Of a stretch of 4,415 nt of DNA, positions 1 to 4,415 are shown in pieces (the first letter of the stretch is position 1; each line of letters opens with the position of its first letter). Location of the stretch: IMG/VR virus record IMGVR_UViG_2693429662_000010. One strand, 5' to 3'. Source of the stretch: a virus (lineage: Duplodnaviria; Heunggongvirae; Uroviricota; Caudoviricetes). The position numbers are program-made.

Positions 1-3000
1 CCTGGTCCCTGACGCATCCGGTGGATGACGCAATTACCCTGCTGACACAGGGCGGCAGACTGACCTGTAAGTTCCGCCTGTCAGGCGCACTGACCAACAA
101 TCAGTTCGGGCTGGGGATTTATCTGTATACGGACGCTCCCGTTCCTGATGGTGTGGCGATGACGGGTACCGGTAATCCGTTCCTGATGTCGTACTTCACT
201 CAGACCACTGACGGCAGAGTGAATCTGATGCATCACAGGAAAGCCGGAAACACGAAGCTGGGGGAGTTCGGCGATTACGGTAACGACTGGCAGACGCTGG
301 AGCTGGTGTTCACCGCCGGCAGTGCCACGGTTACTCCGAAACTGAATGGAGTGGCTGGCCCGGCATTCCAGGTTATAAAAGACAGTCTGACACTGGGACT
401 GAATGCGCTGACGCTGACGGATGTTACAAAAAATGCAGCGTATGGCGTTGAGATAGAAAGTCTGGTGCTGGAGATAAATGCACCGGCATCATCATAAAAA
501 GTGAGCCAGTCAAATGGAAGGTATCGTTAAACTCACCGGTAGTGTCAGTGGGTCGTCTGAGACGCCTGCATGAGTTATCAGAGCCATCAGTACTTAACTG
601 GTGGCTTTTTTTATTGTTGTCAGCTTCCGGATAACGGGAGACGGGGTATGTACCAGATGGAAAAAATCACAACAGGTGTGTCATACACCACGTCAGCGGT
701 GGGGACGGGATACTGGTTACTGCAGCTGCTGGACAAAGTCTCTCCGTCCCAGTGGGTGGCGATAGGTGTGCTGGGGAGTCTGCTGTTTGGCCTGCTGACG
801 TATCTGACAAACCTTTATTTCAAGATTAAAGAAGATAAGCGCAAGGCTGCGAGAGGTGAATAATGCCTCCATCATTACGAAAAGCCGTTGCTGCTGCTAT
901 TGGTGGTGGGGCTGTTGCCATAGCGTCTGTGCTCATCACTGGTCCGAGTGGTGACGATGGCCTGGAAGGTGTCAGCTACATACCATACGAAGATATCGTT
1001 GGCGTATGGACTGTATGTCATGGACACACCGGAAAAGACATCATGCCCGGTAAAACGTATACCGAAGCAGAATGCAAAGCCCTCCTGAATAAAGACCTTG
1101 CCACGGTCGCCAGACAAATTAACCCGTACATCAAAATCGATATACCGGAAACAACGCGCGGCGCTCTTTACTCGTTCGTTTACAACGTGGGCGCTGGCAA
1201 TTTCAGAACATCGACGCTTCTTCGCAAAATAAACCAGGGCGATATCAAAGGCGCATGTGATCAGCTACGGCGCTGGACATACGCTGGCGGTAAGCAATGG
1301 AAAGGGCTGATGACTCGCCGTGAGATTGAGCGTGAAGTCTGTTTGTGGGGGCAACAATGAGCAGAGTAACCGCGATTATCTACGTTCTGGTCATCTGCCT
1401 CATCGTCTGCCTTTCATGGGCTGTTAATCATTACCGTGATAACGCCATCGCCTACAAAGAGCAGCGCGATAAAGCCACATCCATCATCGCTGATATGCAG
1501 AAGCGGCAACGTGATGTAGCAGAACTTGACGCCAGATACACAAAGGAGCTTGCTGATGCTAATGCGACTATCGAAAGTCTCCGTGCTGATGTTTCTGCTG
1601 GGCGTAAGCGCCTGCAAGTCTCCGCCACCTGTGCAAAGTCAACGACCGGAGCCAGCAGCATGGGCGATGGAGAAAGCCCAGGACTTACAGCAGATGCTGA
1701 ACTCAATTATTACCGTCTCCGAGGTGGAATCGACAAGATAACCGCGCAGGTTAACTACCTGCAGGAATACATCAGGACGCAGTGCTTAAAATAATTTTAA
1801 TTTCACTGAAATTTAACAAGTGACTTTCAGGAAAATGCCTCGCAGATGCGGGGCATTTTTGTACCGGTATTTCACCGCGCACCGCAGCGCACAATAAACA
1901 CCGAACCTGACCCTTTGGAATGGGCCTTTGAGGATACCAGTTAGTGCTGGCGAGCCTCGGTGGGCTGGTTTCCTGTGCGGCAAAGGTTCATTTCAAAGAA
2001 GCAGGCAACGCCATGAATGAATTAATTGCGAATCATGACTTCGACTTTCGCCAGTTAGTTACCGCAGCAGAAGGTCAACCGGTAACTGACACCTTCCAGA
2101 TTGCCAGGGCATTTGGTAAACGCCATCAGCATGTGATTAGGGCTATTAAATGTTTGAGATGTTCTGAGGAATTCTCGACAACCCATTTTTGGGCCGTCGA
2201 GAAAATCAATGGCTTAGGTATTTTTGACAAGAAACAGATTTACTACCGCATGGACTTTAGTGGCTTCGTTATGCTGGTTATGGGATTTAACGGGGCAAAA
2301 GCCGATGCTGTTAAAGAAGCCTATATCAATGCGTTTAACTGGATGTCAGCAGAACTCCGTAAGTACAGCGAAAGTTATGAAGCAGAACGTAACGCCGTAA
2401 TGCTGGAGTACATGAAAGAGAAGGATGTCGCCAGCATGTCAGGCCGTCTGCTCAATCGCTGGGGGAGAACGAAAAAACCTCAATTGCTTGCAAAGCTGGA
2501 ACGTCTGGAGAGACAGGGACAGTTTTTATTACCGGGATTCGATAAAGGTATTCAAGCCTGACACATTATGCGCTGTATCGTCGCCGTATTCCCGCATTAA
2601 CCATGACCGTAGCCCGACAGGGAGACTCCTCTGCGCGAGTGTGCGGGGATAATCAAAAACGATACACACCGGGGTTTACCGCGTTAACGGAGCGCGGCGT
2701 TGTCCCCTCATGGTCGCTGGTTCGGTGCGATGGTGGAAGAAACCGGACGATGTGTTACCTCGCAAGACCTGTTATGTCATGTGTCTGATTTGTGATTTAA
2801 GTCGGATAATTGTCGTTGCCATTAAGCAGAGGATTGATGGCCGACAGGGTGGCATTGTTAGAATAAGACTTATTCTTATCTGTGCCGGGAATGAAAATGA
2901 AAAGAAATCTTCCGTTAATTATTTTGTTGTCTTCTCTGGTTATGGGCTGTACGCAACATAAAACAGATATGCCCCGACAGTTGGTTAAGGCATTACCACA

Positions 3001-4415
3001 ATATCCGGCCTATGCAGCGGCAAATTATATAAAGGGACGGGTTGATGTGAAGTTTGATATTGGTGCTGATGGTACTGTCACCCGAATTGAGTTTATCCGT
3101 TCAGAGCCGCACCATCTGTTTGATGAGCAGGTTGTAAAGGCGATGGCAAAATGGCGATTTGAGAAGGACAGGCCGCGTAAAGGCGTGAAGAAAACGTTTA
3201 TCTTTAGTCCTTCTGCACCCTGATTATTTCATCAGAAATTAATTATCACTCTGTTGTTATTCTGTACATTCCGGCTGGGTAAGTCTTGTTCCGCCGGGTA
3301 TGAAGATGAAATATTGTTGGAGGACAGTGGGTACCTGCTCCTGTAACCGAACGTTCATTTCTCGTTATTTGTCATGCTGGCCGGACGCAGATGCGTTGCA
3401 TCTGTTGCCAGCCTTCTCCTGCAGGCTTCAATAACCCACGCTGAAAAGTTACCGGAACCTTTATGTTCAAGGGCGATATTGATCTGTTCAATCATGTGAT
3501 TGGGGAAACGGATATTGCGGATTGTGGTTCTGCGGGTCCGGTTTTTCGATGACATTTTCTTTCCTCTGGTGACAAGCTATATGGAGAGGATTTTACATGG
3601 CTGTGCTTCGTACGTTACCGGGCAGAATCAAAACTCTGAACACCCGGCGGGTGAATGTCCTGAAGGGTGAACAGCGTCGGGTCAGTGGTAGTGCCCGGGT
3701 TTCCCTCAAGCGTCGTATCTGGCTGAGGGATGCCGGACAGTGCTGTCTCTGTGGGCGTGTGGTTGACCTTTGTGACAGTGAACTTGAGCACCGCATTGCA
3801 CTTCAGTTCGGTGGTGGTAATGAGGAGACGAATCTCTGGACGCTCTGTACCGAATGCCATCGACAAAAGTCTGCTCGTGAAGCGGCGAGTGGTATGCCAG
3901 ACCCGACGCTGCCGGAGGTGTCCGGAGGTAGTGGCAGAGCGGACGACATCATCGGACTGTAACCCGACCCGGGGGGGGGTATCATCCGGCGTAAAAAAAG
4001 ATCGCTTTGGACACCGCCCCCCCTCTCACGCAGAGAAAAAATTCCCGTTTCAGGGCAGTTAACATGTTAACTGGCTGTCCGGGCATTTTTGCGGTTTTTA
4101 TCTTTATTATTCAGTTTGTTGTGCGGAAAAAATGTTAACTGGCTTTTTCAGCAAATGTTAACCAGGCAGCAGTTAACATTTGCGGCATGAGACGCCGGGA
4201 AAAATGGGCTGAACCATACCCGGCTGAGTGCGTTATGGACCCGGGAGGAGGCTGTGCTGACAACGCAAAAACGAAAATTTGCGCTGGCGCTCATGTCCGG
4301 GAAAAACAAAACAGCGTCAGCCATTGCCGTAATGCCAGTCAGTTAAGCAACTGACTGGCTCTTTTTCGGGGCTGTGGGGTATTTCCAGGGCCTCTCCTTT
4401 ACCACTCTCGGGAAG

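What the first reader, a model, noticed from the sequence alone, without database searches (positions are those of the whole stretch)
2897..3223. Prophage moron encoding a lipoprotein that is essentially a free-standing TonB C-terminal domain: candidate TonB decoy
Seen in sequence: a 17-residue lipoprotein signal peptide (MKRNLPLIILLSSLVMG, Cys18 lipobox, Thr at +2 so outer-membrane sorting is the default prediction), then ~90 residues that align without gaps to the C-terminal domain of E. coli TonB, including the QYP motif region that contacts the TonB box of transporters. The protein lacks TonB's N-terminal transmembrane anchor and Pro-rich spacer, so it cannot couple to ExbB/ExbD and is a tethered TonB-box-binding module only. 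Established knowledge: periplasmically exported TonB C-terminal fragments are dominant-negative for TonB-dependent uptake; phages T1 and phi80 and group B colicins need TonB; phage lipoproteins Llp (T5) and Cor (phi80/N15) exclude superinfection by blocking FhuA. Inference: this lipoprotein is a TonB mimic giving the lysogen resistance to TonB-dependent phages or colicins, or modulating siderophore/B12 uptake. It sits where lambda carries bor, has its own candidate promoter, and its 5' half is AT-richer than its neighbours. I am not aware of a characterised phage exclusion factor of this type.
Basis: partly seen in the sequence, partly recalled or inferred. Interest (0 to 1): 0.85.

Follow-up and report, generated by a model that had tools for sequence, protein, structure and literature searches.

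The report
Prophage lipoprotein copying TonB's docking domain
A common but unstudied E. coli prophage gene encodes a small outer-membrane lipoprotein that is a free-standing copy of the TonB docking domain; it may jam TonB-dependent entry of phages and bacteriocins, and its relatives in other enterobacteria carry iron-regulation (Fur) sites.

Summary
Window 2897-3223(+) encodes a 108-aa protein with a signal peptide and lipobox (Cys18, Thr+2). Residues 26-104 align without gaps to E. coli TonB 153-231 (39% identity, PDB E=4.5e-16, Pfam TonB_C E=5e-15). The AlphaFold model superposes on TonB bound to BtuB at 1.1 A. There is no membrane anchor or proline-rich spacer.

It is a real gene: dN/dS is 0.12 against the phage 21 copy. 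It lies on a 650-bp AT-richer cassette between the lysis genes and terminase. The two E. coli clades occur in 7.6% and 22.6% of complete genomes. The phage-21-type copy is expressed in an LF82 lysogen.

New points. It is not a recent capture of tonB. It belongs to a distinct Enterobacterales family of short TonB_C lipoproteins, found both in prophages (same slot) and on chromosomes. In at least five lineages a strong Fur box sits 11-46 nt upstream of the start. The window's own site is weak (13/19).

The decoy function is plausible but untested. The docking strand and Phe230 equivalent are kept, and position 160 carries the Q160L suppressor residue. The plug-contact Arg166 is Tyr. I found no paper on the function.

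The parts
2897..3223 (+). CDS of the 108-aa TonB_C lipoprotein (stop codon included)
   Evidence: ORF. RefSeq WP_000828070.1 'TonB family protein'. Pfam TonB_C E=5.2e-15. dN/dS 0.12 against the phage 21 copy.
2897..2950 (+). Lipoprotein signal peptide and lipobox (MKRNLPLIILLSSLVMG-C18); Thr19 at +2
   Evidence: Lipobox pattern match. Cys18 is invariant and no Asp occurs at +2 in 29 family members.
2951..2971 (+). Short tether (TQHKTDM, 7 residues) between the acylated Cys and the domain
   Evidence: Alignment to TonB starts at Pro26 = TonB Pro153. Mean pLDDT of residues 21-30 is 81, and the first strand is at 28-30. Tethers in the family are 7-17 residues.
2972..3208 (+). TonB C-terminal domain, residues 26-104 = E. 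coli TonB 153-231. It includes PQYP (34-37), Leu33 (=Q160), Tyr39 (=R166) and the docking strand 94-103 with Phe103 (=F230).
   Evidence: phmmer against PDB, gapless, E=4.5e-16. AF2 domain blocks (10-residue means) have pLDDT 95-98. Foldseek: 1u07 rmsd 1.1 A; 2gsk_B TM 0.93.
2856..2864 (+). Candidate extended -10 promoter element TGTTAGAAT (weak -35 TTGATG at 2834-2839, 19-nt spacer)
   Evidence: Read from the sequence. The block attgt(t/c)agaataagac is conserved between clades A and B, while synonymous sites in the gene are saturated. It is invariant in 70 clade A copies. It was not called by the consensus scan.
2861..2880 (.). 8-1-8 palindrome AGAATAAG-A-CTTATTCT (2861-2877) overlapping the -10, with a weak Fur-box-like match (13/19 at 2862-2880)
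   Evidence: There are four 13/19 hits in the window, so the match is not significant alone. It occupies the position where relatives carry 15-17/19 Fur boxes.
2748..3400 (.). Moron cassette: the segment present here but replaced by 246 bp in Stx phage 2851
   Evidence: blastn breakpoints at q2747/q3401. GC is 0.40-0.45 inside the cassette, from 2750 to about 3350.
1357..1794 (+). Context: Rz i-spanin, with the embedded Rz1 o-spanin ORF (1556-1741) and a hairpin terminator at about 1830-1860. Together these show that the finding is not the spanin.
   Evidence: Pfam Phage_lysis E=1e-34. The embedded ORF has the lipobox LLGVSAC. RNAfold gives a 13-bp hairpin.
3355..3555 (-). Context: ylcI/DUF3950 gene, convergent with the finding; then HNH (3597-3962, +) and the start of terS
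   Evidence: Pfam DUF3950 E=4.6e-20 and HNH. RefSeq annotation.

Best explanation
The gene encodes a small lipoprotein. [quoted passage not shown] There a 7-10-residue tether holds a complete, uncoupled TonB C-terminal domain just under the TonB-dependent transporters.

Most likely this domain does what TonB's own domain does. It pairs its exposed last strand (residues 94-103, Phe103) with a TonB box by beta-augmentation. Because it has no link to ExbB/ExbD it delivers no force. It therefore competes with TonB for the TonB boxes of transporters, or for those of incoming group B colicins and similar toxins. This would damp or block TonB-dependent translocation.

In a lysogen the benefit would be resistance to TonB-dependent phages, colicins or microcins. 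In chromosomal relatives, and at least one prophage, expression is probably switched on by iron starvation through Fur. That is the time when those receptors are most abundant.

Shown: the gene is real and under purifying selection, has a lipobox, has the TonB CTD fold, is a cassette, is widespread, and has relatives with Fur boxes. Inferred: localisation, TonB-box binding, competition with TonB, and any exclusion phenotype.
For: Fold and sequence.
- TonB_C scores well above the cut-offs.
- The alignment to TonB 153-231 is gapless.
- The AF2 model has 10-residue block means of pLDDT 95-98 across the domain. It superposes on TonB in the BtuB complex (2gsk_B, TM 0.93, rmsd 1.1 A) and the FhuA complex (2grx_C, rmsd 1.1 A).

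Docking features are kept.
- The last strand and Phe103 (=Phe230) are retained. Phe230 packs against Val10 of the TonB box, and TonB strand 226-231 is the docking strand (PMC6118199; PMC11658791).
- The C-terminus ends 5 residues after Phe103 (SPSAP), and the model has no further strand. The covering strand formed by TonB 235-239 in the NMR structure therefore cannot form.
- Leu33 sits at the Q160 position. Q160L is the allele that restores interaction with mutant TonB boxes of colicin M and FhuA.
- The YP motif and the aromatic core (Y163, F180, F202, W213, F230 equivalents) are conserved family-wide.

Geometry. In the BtuB complex, helix alpha-1 faces the plug. The N-terminus that carries the lipid anchor is therefore on the membrane-proximal side.

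Precedents.
- Overexpressed periplasmic TonB domain inhibits iron import by TBDTs (PMC9841981 citing Howard et al. 2001).
- T5 Llp is an inner-leaflet OM lipoprotein that binds the periplasmic face of FhuA (bioRxiv 10.64898/2026.03.26.714494).

Selection and spread.
- dN/dS is 0.12 with dS 1.5.
- Clade A is in 415 and clade B in 1225 of 5426 complete E. coli genomes.
- The gene occupies the same lysis-to-terminase slot in E. coli, Klebsiella, Rahnella and Serratia phages that have unrelated lysis genes.
- It stands alone with no conserved partner gene. That fits action on a universal host machine.
- LF82_160, the clade B copy, is expressed 8-fold over background in a lysogen.

Fur boxes of 15-17/19 lie 11-46 nt upstream of the start in at least 5 lineages.
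Against: - No binding or phenotype data exist, and I could not model a complex.
- Arg166, which contacts FhuA Glu56, is replaced by a near-invariant Tyr. Arg158 and Gln160 equivalents vary across the family. The interaction surface is therefore not identical to TonB's.
- An inhibitor of iron uptake that is induced by iron starvation looks costly for chromosomal carriers.
- Many family members sit in ordinary chromosomal contexts rather than in defence or phage contexts.
- There is no PADLOC hit.
- The O157 prophage that carries it has no cor, and nothing indicates that it uses a TonB-dependent receptor itself.
- The window's own Fur-like site is only 13/19.
- Frameshifted copies lacking the docking strand are common in clade B.
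Confidence: 0.4

Rival explanations
1. Iron-uptake accessory factor. The lipoprotein belongs to the Fur regulon and helps or tunes TonB-dependent transport. For example, it might hold or pre-organise TonB boxes, retain TonB's C-terminal domain at the outer membrane by heterodimerising with it, or limit futile TonB cycles. The prophage copy would then be a fitness moron like sitABCD, not an exclusion factor.
For: Strong Fur boxes lie immediately upstream in Raoultella/Klebsiella, Serratia grimesii, Erwinia typographi, Pantoea agglomerans and a Serratia prophage. In each case it is the only site of 15/19 or better near the gene within 8-14 kb. Many copies are in stable chromosomal contexts, such as next to lacZ-lacI or near minCD, dsbB and fadR. 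Perceval, which carries the clade B copy, also carries the sitABCD iron/manganese morons.
Against: No mechanism is known by which an uncoupled TonB domain promotes transport. The only experimental precedent, a periplasmic TonB domain, is inhibitory. The copies in phage 21, the Klebsiella phage and the Rahnella prophage lack Fur boxes. There is no conserved linkage to a transporter gene.
Confidence: 0.25
2. Repurposed fold. The TonB_C domain here binds something other than a TonB box, such as peptidoglycan, another envelope protein or a host factor. The protein would be a generic envelope or virulence lipoprotein of the Bor/Lom kind.
For: It lies in the bor slot, directly next to bor in phage 21. 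Residues that contact transporters in TonB (R158, Q160, R166) are not conserved, while a family-specific motif, S-E/T-P-x-H-L-F-D-D, is. The TonB_C fold also occurs in many multi-repeat proteins that are clearly not energy transducers.
Against: The core docking elements are intact and exposed. The nearest structures are all TonB-box-binding CTDs, and TolA-III-type domains score far worse.
Confidence: 0.2
3. Lysis accessory or spanin, as the PHROG label 'Rz-like spanin' (phrog_1267) suggests.
For: PHROG hit E=2.6e-42. It is a lipoprotein gene downstream of the lysis cassette on the late-operon strand.
Against: A complete Rz/Rz1 pair is present at 1357-1794. The gene is 1.1 kb further on, beyond a hairpin terminator and a Rha gene. 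It encodes a globular TonB_C domain. Related phages lyse without it, since phage 2851 lacks the cassette. The label is best explained as annotation transfer from neighbouring genes.
Confidence: 0.03
4. Decaying remnant with no function.
For: Frameshifted C-terminal variants exist in clade B; P0012 alone has 130 member sequences. The window's prophage has IS4 inserted in terS.
Against: dN/dS is 0.12 at saturated dS. The signal peptide, lipobox Cys and fold core are conserved down to 32% identity across genera. The gene is expressed in a lysogen.
Confidence: 0.02

Closest known systems
C-terminal domain of E. coli TonB (residues 153-239; PDB 1U07, 2GSK, 2GRX)
   Same: Same fold (rmsd 1.1 A), 39% identity and a gapless alignment. 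The YP motif, aromatic core, docking strand and Phe230 equivalent are kept.
   Different: There is no N-terminal TM helix or Pro-rich spacer, so no coupling to ExbB/ExbD. It is lipid-anchored to the outer membrane from its N-terminus. Q160 is Leu, R166 is Tyr, and the C-terminal tail is 4 residues shorter. It fails all TonB equivalog cut-offs (73 bits against 265-448). In a distance tree it groups with other short lipoproteins, not with TonB.
Periplasmically expressed TonB fragments (Howard et al. 2001, as cited in PMC9841981)
   Same: An uncoupled TonB periplasmic domain that competes for TonB boxes and inhibits TBDT transport.
   Different: Those were laboratory constructs, soluble and overexpressed. 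This is a natural, conserved, membrane-tethered protein with its own regulation.
Phage T5 Llp and phi80/N15 Cor superinfection-exclusion lipoproteins
   Same: Small phage-encoded lipoproteins of the outer membrane's inner leaflet that act on the periplasmic face of a TonB-dependent transporter.
   Different: There is no sequence or fold relationship: no Llp or Cor hit in Pfam or Foldseek. Llp and Cor are FhuA-specific and work allosterically. A TonB-box binder would be generic for all TonB-dependent routes.
Lambda Bor / phage morons in the lysis-to-cos slot
   Same: Same genomic slot, lipoprotein, AT-richer cassette, and expression from the prophage.
   Different: Unrelated protein. Here the gene is on the late-operon strand rather than opposed to it.
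Specialised TonB paralogues (HasB, FusB)
   Same: TonB_C domains diverged for particular partners. FusB CTD is among the top structural hits (7zc8).
   Different: HasB and FusB keep the inner-membrane anchor and transduce energy. This family cannot.

Membership tests
TonB_C domain family (Pfam PF03544 / TIGR01352) | Profile score above the curated cut-off | tested here: met
   PF03544: 56.1 bits against 24.6. TIGR01352: 56.5 against 27.1.
TonB_C domain family (Pfam PF03544 / TIGR01352) | [quoted passage not shown] | tested here: met
   AF2 pLDDT 86 overall, with 10-residue block means of 95-98 across the domain. Foldseek: 1u07_A E=1e-8, rmsd 1.1 A; 2gsk_B TM 0.93.
TonB_C domain family (Pfam PF03544 / TIGR01352) | Conserved YP motif and aromatic core | tested here: met
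   P34, Y36 and P37 are present. F53, F75, W86, F88 and F103 align to F180, F202, W213, Y215 and F230.
TonB energy transducer (NCBIfam PRK10819 equivalogs) | N-terminal inner-membrane anchor that couples to ExbB/ExbD | tested here: not met
   The N-terminus is a cleavable lipoprotein signal peptide, and the whole protein is 108 aa.
TonB energy transducer (NCBIfam PRK10819 equivalogs) | Proline-rich periplasm-spanning spacer | tested here: not met
   Only 7 residues lie between Cys18 and the domain.
TonB energy transducer (NCBIfam PRK10819 equivalogs) | Equivalog score cut-off | tested here: not met
   Best 73.3 bits against cut-offs of 265-448.
TonB energy transducer (NCBIfam PRK10819 equivalogs) | Binds the TonB box of transporters | not testable with these tools
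   Complex modelling is not available. Docking strand conservation is indirect evidence only.
Bacterial lipoproteins (Lgt/LspA/Lnt pathway, Lol sorting) | Signal peptide ending in a lipobox with invariant Cys | tested here: met
   L-V-M-G-C18 matches the pattern. The Cys is invariant in 29 sequences.
Bacterial lipoproteins (Lgt/LspA/Lnt pathway, Lol sorting) | No Lol-avoidance Asp at +2 (outer-membrane sorting) | tested here: met
   The +2 residue is Thr here and S, T, A or V in all 29 members. This is a sequence rule only.
Bacterial lipoproteins (Lgt/LspA/Lnt pathway, Lol sorting) | Acylation and globomycin-sensitive processing | not testable with these tools
   Needs an experiment.
Llp/Cor exclusion lipoproteins | Homology or shared fold with Llp (PDB 8A60) or Cor | tested here: not met
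   No such hits in Pfam, PDB Foldseek or BFVD.
Llp/Cor exclusion lipoproteins | Blocks infection through a TonB-dependent receptor | not testable with these tools
   Needs plating assays.
Spanins (PHROG 1267 label) | Acts as the o-spanin partner of an i-spanin; gene embedded in or abutting Rz | tested here: not met
   A separate Rz/Rz1 pair lies at 1357-1794. The gene is 1.1 kb away, beyond a terminator and a Rha gene. Phage 2851 lacks it.
Fur regulon | Fur box overlapping the promoter | tested here: inconclusive
   Window: 13/19 at 2862-2880, with 4 equal hits in 4.4 kb. Relatives: 15-17/19, the only such site near the gene, with 0/500 shuffles reaching the score in the four loci that were shuffle-tested.
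Phage morons | Presence/absence cassette with deviating composition, expressed from the prophage | tested here: met
   The cassette 2748-3400 is absent from phage 2851. GC is 0.40-0.45. The clade B copy is expressed 8-fold over background in LF82. Expression of this exact clade was not tested.

The most novel reading that the evidence does not exclude
Enterobacteria and their temperate phages share a family of iron-regulated, outer-membrane-tethered TonB mimics. These cap TonB boxes at the periplasmic mouth of transporters. They would give broad, receptor-independent protection against every TonB-dependent invader (T1/phi80-type phages, group B colicins, siderophore-microcins) at the time when iron starvation derepresses the receptors. 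This would be exclusion by mimicry of the host's own energy transducer.
Probability: 0.25. Interest if true: 0.85.

Novelty: new variant of a known kind. Interest (0 to 1): 0.6.

Why it matters
One clade or the other is present in 7.6% and 22.6% of complete E. coli genomes, including O157:H7, O145, O111 and AIEC LF82. Databases label the gene only as 'TonB family protein', 'TonB fragment' or, wrongly, 'Rz-like spanin'.

If it caps TonB boxes, it would be a generic exclusion or immunity factor that works through host mimicry. That bears on three things: phage therapy and colicin or microcin-based decolonisation of STEC, uptake of siderophore-antibiotic conjugates, and iron acquisition during infection.

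The link to Fur boxes gives a simple entry point for experiments. It also suggests a previously unlisted member of the iron-starvation response in Serratia, Pantoea, Erwinia and Raoultella.

If instead it promotes transport, it would add a new component to a system that is still not understood mechanistically.

Tried and rejected
- Literature: ten full-text searches (TonB with prophage, lipoprotein or exclusion; tonB-like; WP_000828070; TonB mimic, decoy or fragment; and others) found no functional study. The only mention was 'TonB fragment' in the LF82 moron table. The Howard 2001 paper itself is not held.
- The consensus promoter/terminator scan found no + strand promoter upstream and no terminator after the gene. 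RNAfold of 3224-3360 gives no terminator-like hairpin with a U tract.
- PADLOC, Rfam and BFVD gave nothing.
- Spanin reading: rejected (see rivals).
- 'Recent capture of E. coli tonB': rejected. The domain is 39% identical to TonB but 52% identical to other short lipoproteins, and the two groups separate in an NJ tree (distance tree without bootstrap).
- The first genome scan with the 13-sequence alignment failed for lack of a conserved stretch. It was repeated with 7 sequences.
- I looked for cor or another sign that the carrier prophage uses FhuA and found none.
- The palindrome as a conserved operator: its right arm is absent from clade B, so it is not a family-wide feature.

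
Full report
WHAT IS IN THE WINDOW

The 4415-bp window is the late region of a lambdoid STEC prophage. Its parts (Pfam; ORFs) are:
- 21-497: the C-terminal end of a SASA-type esterase ORF (DUF6645).
- 648-863: a phage-21-type holin.
- 863-1360: a lysozyme.
- 1357-1794: Rz, with an embedded Rz1 lipoprotein ORF at 1556-1741.
- 2013-2561: a Rha-family antirepressor.
- 2897-3223: the finding.
- 3555-3355, minus strand: a convergent ylcI/DUF3950 gene.
- 3597-3962: an HNH endonuclease.
- From 4254: the first codons of terS.

A 701-bp stretch around the finding is 100% identical to prophages of O157:H7, O145 and other STEC. There RefSeq calls the gene 'TonB family protein', WP_000828070.1.

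The 108-aa product starts with MKRNLPLIILLSSLVMG-C18-T. This fits a lipobox pattern.

Residues 26-104 align without a gap to E. coli TonB 153-231. Query residue i corresponds to TonB residue i+127, and 31 of 79 residues are identical.
- PDB 1u07: E=4.5e-16.
- Pfam TonB_C: 56.1 bits against a cut-off of 24.6.
- TIGR01352: 56.5 bits against 27.1.

I built an AlphaFold2 model from a 29-sequence family alignment.
- Mean pLDDT is 86, with 10-residue block means of 95-98 across the domain.
- Secondary structure: strand 28-30, helix 38-42, strands 47-55 and 61-70, helix 76-83, strand 94-103. Nothing follows.
- Foldseek against the PDB returns only TonB C-terminal domains at the top: 1u07 (rmsd 1.1 A), TonB bound to BtuB (2gsk_B, TM 0.93), TonB bound to FhuA (2grx_C), and the FusB and P. 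aeruginosa TonB CTDs.
- TolA domain III scores far lower.

The protein fails every full-length TonB equivalog model (at most 73 bits against cut-offs of 265-448). It has neither the membrane anchor nor the proline-rich spacer.

IT IS A FUNCTIONAL, MOBILE GENE

The homologue in phage 21 is 71% identical in protein. Against it, dN/dS is 0.12 with synonymous sites saturated (dS 1.5). The signal peptide and the domain give similar values.

Stx phage 2851 shares the flanks but lacks window 2748-3400, carrying 246 unrelated bp instead. That segment has GC 0.40-0.45 (up to about 3350), against 0.50-0.60 just upstream. It therefore behaves as a moron cassette.

In E. coli there are two clades.
- The window's clade A is in 415 of 5426 complete genomes.
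- The phage-21/Perceval clade B is in 1225 of 5426.

In phage 21 the gene lies directly after bor and before cos. In AIEC LF82 the clade B copy (LF82_160, 'TonB fragment') is listed among the prophage genes transcribed in the lysogen, at 8-fold above local background (PMC9928086).

PROMOTER

The simple scan finds no sigma-70 consensus upstream on the + strand.

There is an extended -10, TGTTAGAAT, at 2856-2864. The block attgt(t/c)agaataagac is conserved between the two clades, even though synonymous sites in the gene are saturated. It is invariant in 70 clade A copies whose flanks vary.

A hairpin terminator follows Rz at about 1830-1860. Expression in the lysogen therefore needs a promoter of this kind. 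In lytic growth the gene is also on the late-operon strand.

A WIDER FAMILY

An exhaustive phmmer search of 1.84 billion representatives gives 4933 TonB_C hits. The best full-length matches are 105-135-aa proteins that all begin with a lipoprotein signal.

In a 29-sequence alignment reaching 32% identity, these positions are invariant: Cys18, P34, P37, G47, V49, D54, G59, S69, P71, W86 and P93. The tether is always short, and +2 is never Asp.

Members occur in Raoultella, Klebsiella, Serratia, Erwinia, Pantoea, Rahnella, Pseudescherichia and Salmonella.

Some are in prophages, and always in the same slot between lysis genes and terminase, although the lysis and packaging genes are unrelated:
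- Klebsiella phage ST13-OXA48phi12.4.
- A Rahnella prophage with a GH19 endolysin and a lambda-type terminase.
- A Serratia montpellierensis prophage: Mom, lysozyme, the gene, terS, portal.

Others are in ordinary chromosomal contexts:
- Next to lacZ-lacI in Raoultella.
- In the minCD, dsbB, fadR region in Serratia grimesii.
- Among metabolic genes in Pantoea agglomerans and Salmonella.

A scan of IMG/VR with the Pantoea/Erwinia-type profile found only three viral loci.

In a neighbour-joining tree of the domain, the short lipoproteins group together and apart from bona fide TonB proteins. The window's domain is 52% identical to P0035 and P0037 but 39% identical to E. coli TonB (a distance tree without bootstrap, so moderate evidence).

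The prophage gene is therefore a member of an older lipoprotein family. It is not a fresh copy of the 3' end of tonB.

FUR BOXES

I scanned each related locus for the Fur consensus GATAATGATAATCATTATC.

In 9 of 20 loci, a match of 15/19 or better lies 11-46 nt upstream of the start codon of the TonB_C lipoprotein gene:
- Raoultella, four species (15/19).
- Klebsiella sp. (16/19).
- Serratia grimesii (17/19).
- Erwinia typographi (16/19).
- Pantoea agglomerans (16/19).
- The Serratia montpellierensis prophage (16/19).

In eight of these loci it is the only such site in the whole 8-14 kb locus. The Serratia prophage locus has one further 15/19 hit, far from the gene. Only three off-target sites occur in roughly 245 kb in all. 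These nine loci represent at least five independent lineages.

A second Raoultella planticola copy has a weaker Fur-like box, which I read by eye from the upstream sequence as 14/19 (not computed). The Klebsiella phage has 12/19.

The window has 13/19 at 2862-2880. This is the 8-1-8 palindrome AGAATAAG-A-CTTATTCT that overlaps the -10. It consists of three AATAAG hexamers in the forward-forward-x-reverse layout of a Fur box. However, four equally good hits occur in the 4.4-kb window. The right arm is missing in clade B.

The family is therefore often iron-regulated. For this copy the question is open.

MECHANISM

Published structures show the following.
- The TonB box of FhuA or BtuB pairs in parallel with TonB strand 226-231.
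- Val10 of the box packs on Phe230.
- Helix alpha-1 faces the plug.
- In the NMR structure of free E. coli TonB, residues 235-239 form an extra strand that must be exchanged for the TonB box (PMC11658791; PMC6118199).

The window protein compares as follows.
- It keeps the strand (94-103) and Phe103.
- It has basic residues at the start of the strand (K95, K98, K99).
- It ends five residues later (SPSAP), so it cannot form the covering strand.
- At the Q160 position it has Leu. Q160L is the classical suppressor that restores interaction with mutant TonB boxes of colicin M and FhuA. This position varies in the family, so I treat it as compatible rather than diagnostic.
- Arg166, which contacts FhuA Glu56, is a near-invariant Tyr in the family.

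Because alpha-1 and the preceding N-terminal segment face the transporter, an N-terminal lipid anchor on a 7-10-residue tether is geometrically reasonable. This is inference.

Two precedents exist. Overexpressed periplasmic TonB domain inhibits TBDT iron import (PMC9841981 citing Howard et al. 2001). T5 Llp is an inner-leaflet lipoprotein that binds the periplasmic face of FhuA.

I therefore rank an uncoupled, outer-membrane-tethered TonB-box binder that competes with TonB as the best explanation (0.4).

Fur control does not contradict this. Receptors for colicins, microcins and T1-like phages peak under iron starvation, and some bacteriocins are themselves iron-regulated (the latter from my own knowledge). 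Fur control fits an accessory role in iron uptake equally well (0.25).

A repurposed fold with another ligand remains possible (0.2).

The spanin label in PHROGs and the pseudogene reading are rejected for the reasons given under rivals.

NOVELTY

The gene is annotated and has been noticed as an expressed moron. Ten full-text searches found no functional work and no use of terms such as TonB mimic, TonB decoy or phage-encoded TonB. It matches no PADLOC model and has no significant structural neighbour in BFVD.

I rate it a new variant of a known kind. It would be a receptor-targeting exclusion or immunity lipoprotein, but one built from a mimic of the host energy transducer and potentially generic for all TonB-dependent routes.

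Interest is 0.6. The case is well founded, widespread and directly testable, but no functional evidence exists yet.

Noticed in passing
L086-L090 about 6916-6991; L092 6931-6949; L094 1603-1627; L097 6897-6915; L102 6037-6055: Fur-box matches of 15-17/19 lie 11-46 nt upstream of the TonB_C lipoprotein start in Raoultella, Klebsiella, Serratia, Erwinia and Pantoea, and in one Serratia prophage. In eight of these nine loci it is the only such site in the 8-14 kb locus. This suggests the family belongs to the iron-starvation response.
   Followed up: partly
window 4330-4415: The last 86 nt are the end of an IS4 element (100% identity, up to 32 copies per genome). terS is therefore interrupted after about 25 codons in this copy. 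Either the prophage is packaging-defective or the contig ends at an assembly break.
   Followed up: partly
window 4056-4181: There are five copies of TGTTAAC (core of CAGTTAACATGTTAACTG-type inverted repeats) between HNH and terS; 0 of 200 shuffles reach this count. There is also a G9 run at 3971-3979 and a C7 run at 4015-4021. These are probably the cos or terminase-binding region.
   Followed up: no
window 3051-3024 (minus strand): A near-consensus sigma-70 promoter (TTCACA-16-TATAAT, 11/12) lies antisense inside the TonB_C gene. The TATAAT is kept in the phage 21 copy, but coding constraint (A-N-Y-I-K) could explain that.
   Followed up: partly
window 1830-1860: A 13-bp hairpin (GAAAATGCCTCGC-AGAT-GCGGGGCATTTTT) directly after Rz looks like an intrinsic terminator. 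The consensus scan missed it.
   Followed up: yes
window 2897-3223; PHROG phrog_1267: The PHROG family holding this protein is labelled 'Rz-like spanin'. Several RefSeq phage records (e.g. Stx2a_WGPS8, Stx2a_WGPS6) list two 'Rz-like spanin' features in the lysis-terminase region. For this protein the label is a misannotation.
   Followed up: yes
proteins P0012, P0013, P0015, P0018, P0019, P0021 (clade B): Frameshifted variants replace the last roughly 15 residues, which include the docking strand, with unrelated sequence. P0012 alone stands for 130 member sequences, so loss of the C-terminus is common in some E. coli lineages.
   Followed up: no
window 2724-2795; L003 4846-4983: The conserved block GGTGCGATGGTGGAAGAAAC begins a 45-codon ORF in phage 21 (MVEETGSC...). 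The same ORF is cut to 21 codons in the window. The block belongs to the shared backbone to the left of the cassette.
   Followed up: partly
proteins P0034, P0036, P0043, P0069 and others: Many of the best TonB_C hits in the 1.84-billion-protein library are proteins of 300-1300 aa with 3-5 tandem TonB_C domains. P0155 is a 152-aa lipoprotein whose domain groups with true TonB, which looks like an independent lipoprotein-TonB_C fusion.
   Followed up: no
L095 8459-8872: In Pseudescherichia, a second small lipoprotein gene (137 aa, MKKMLVVAVVVGLVGC...) with no Pfam hit lies 1.1 kb downstream of the TonB_C lipoprotein.
   Followed up: no
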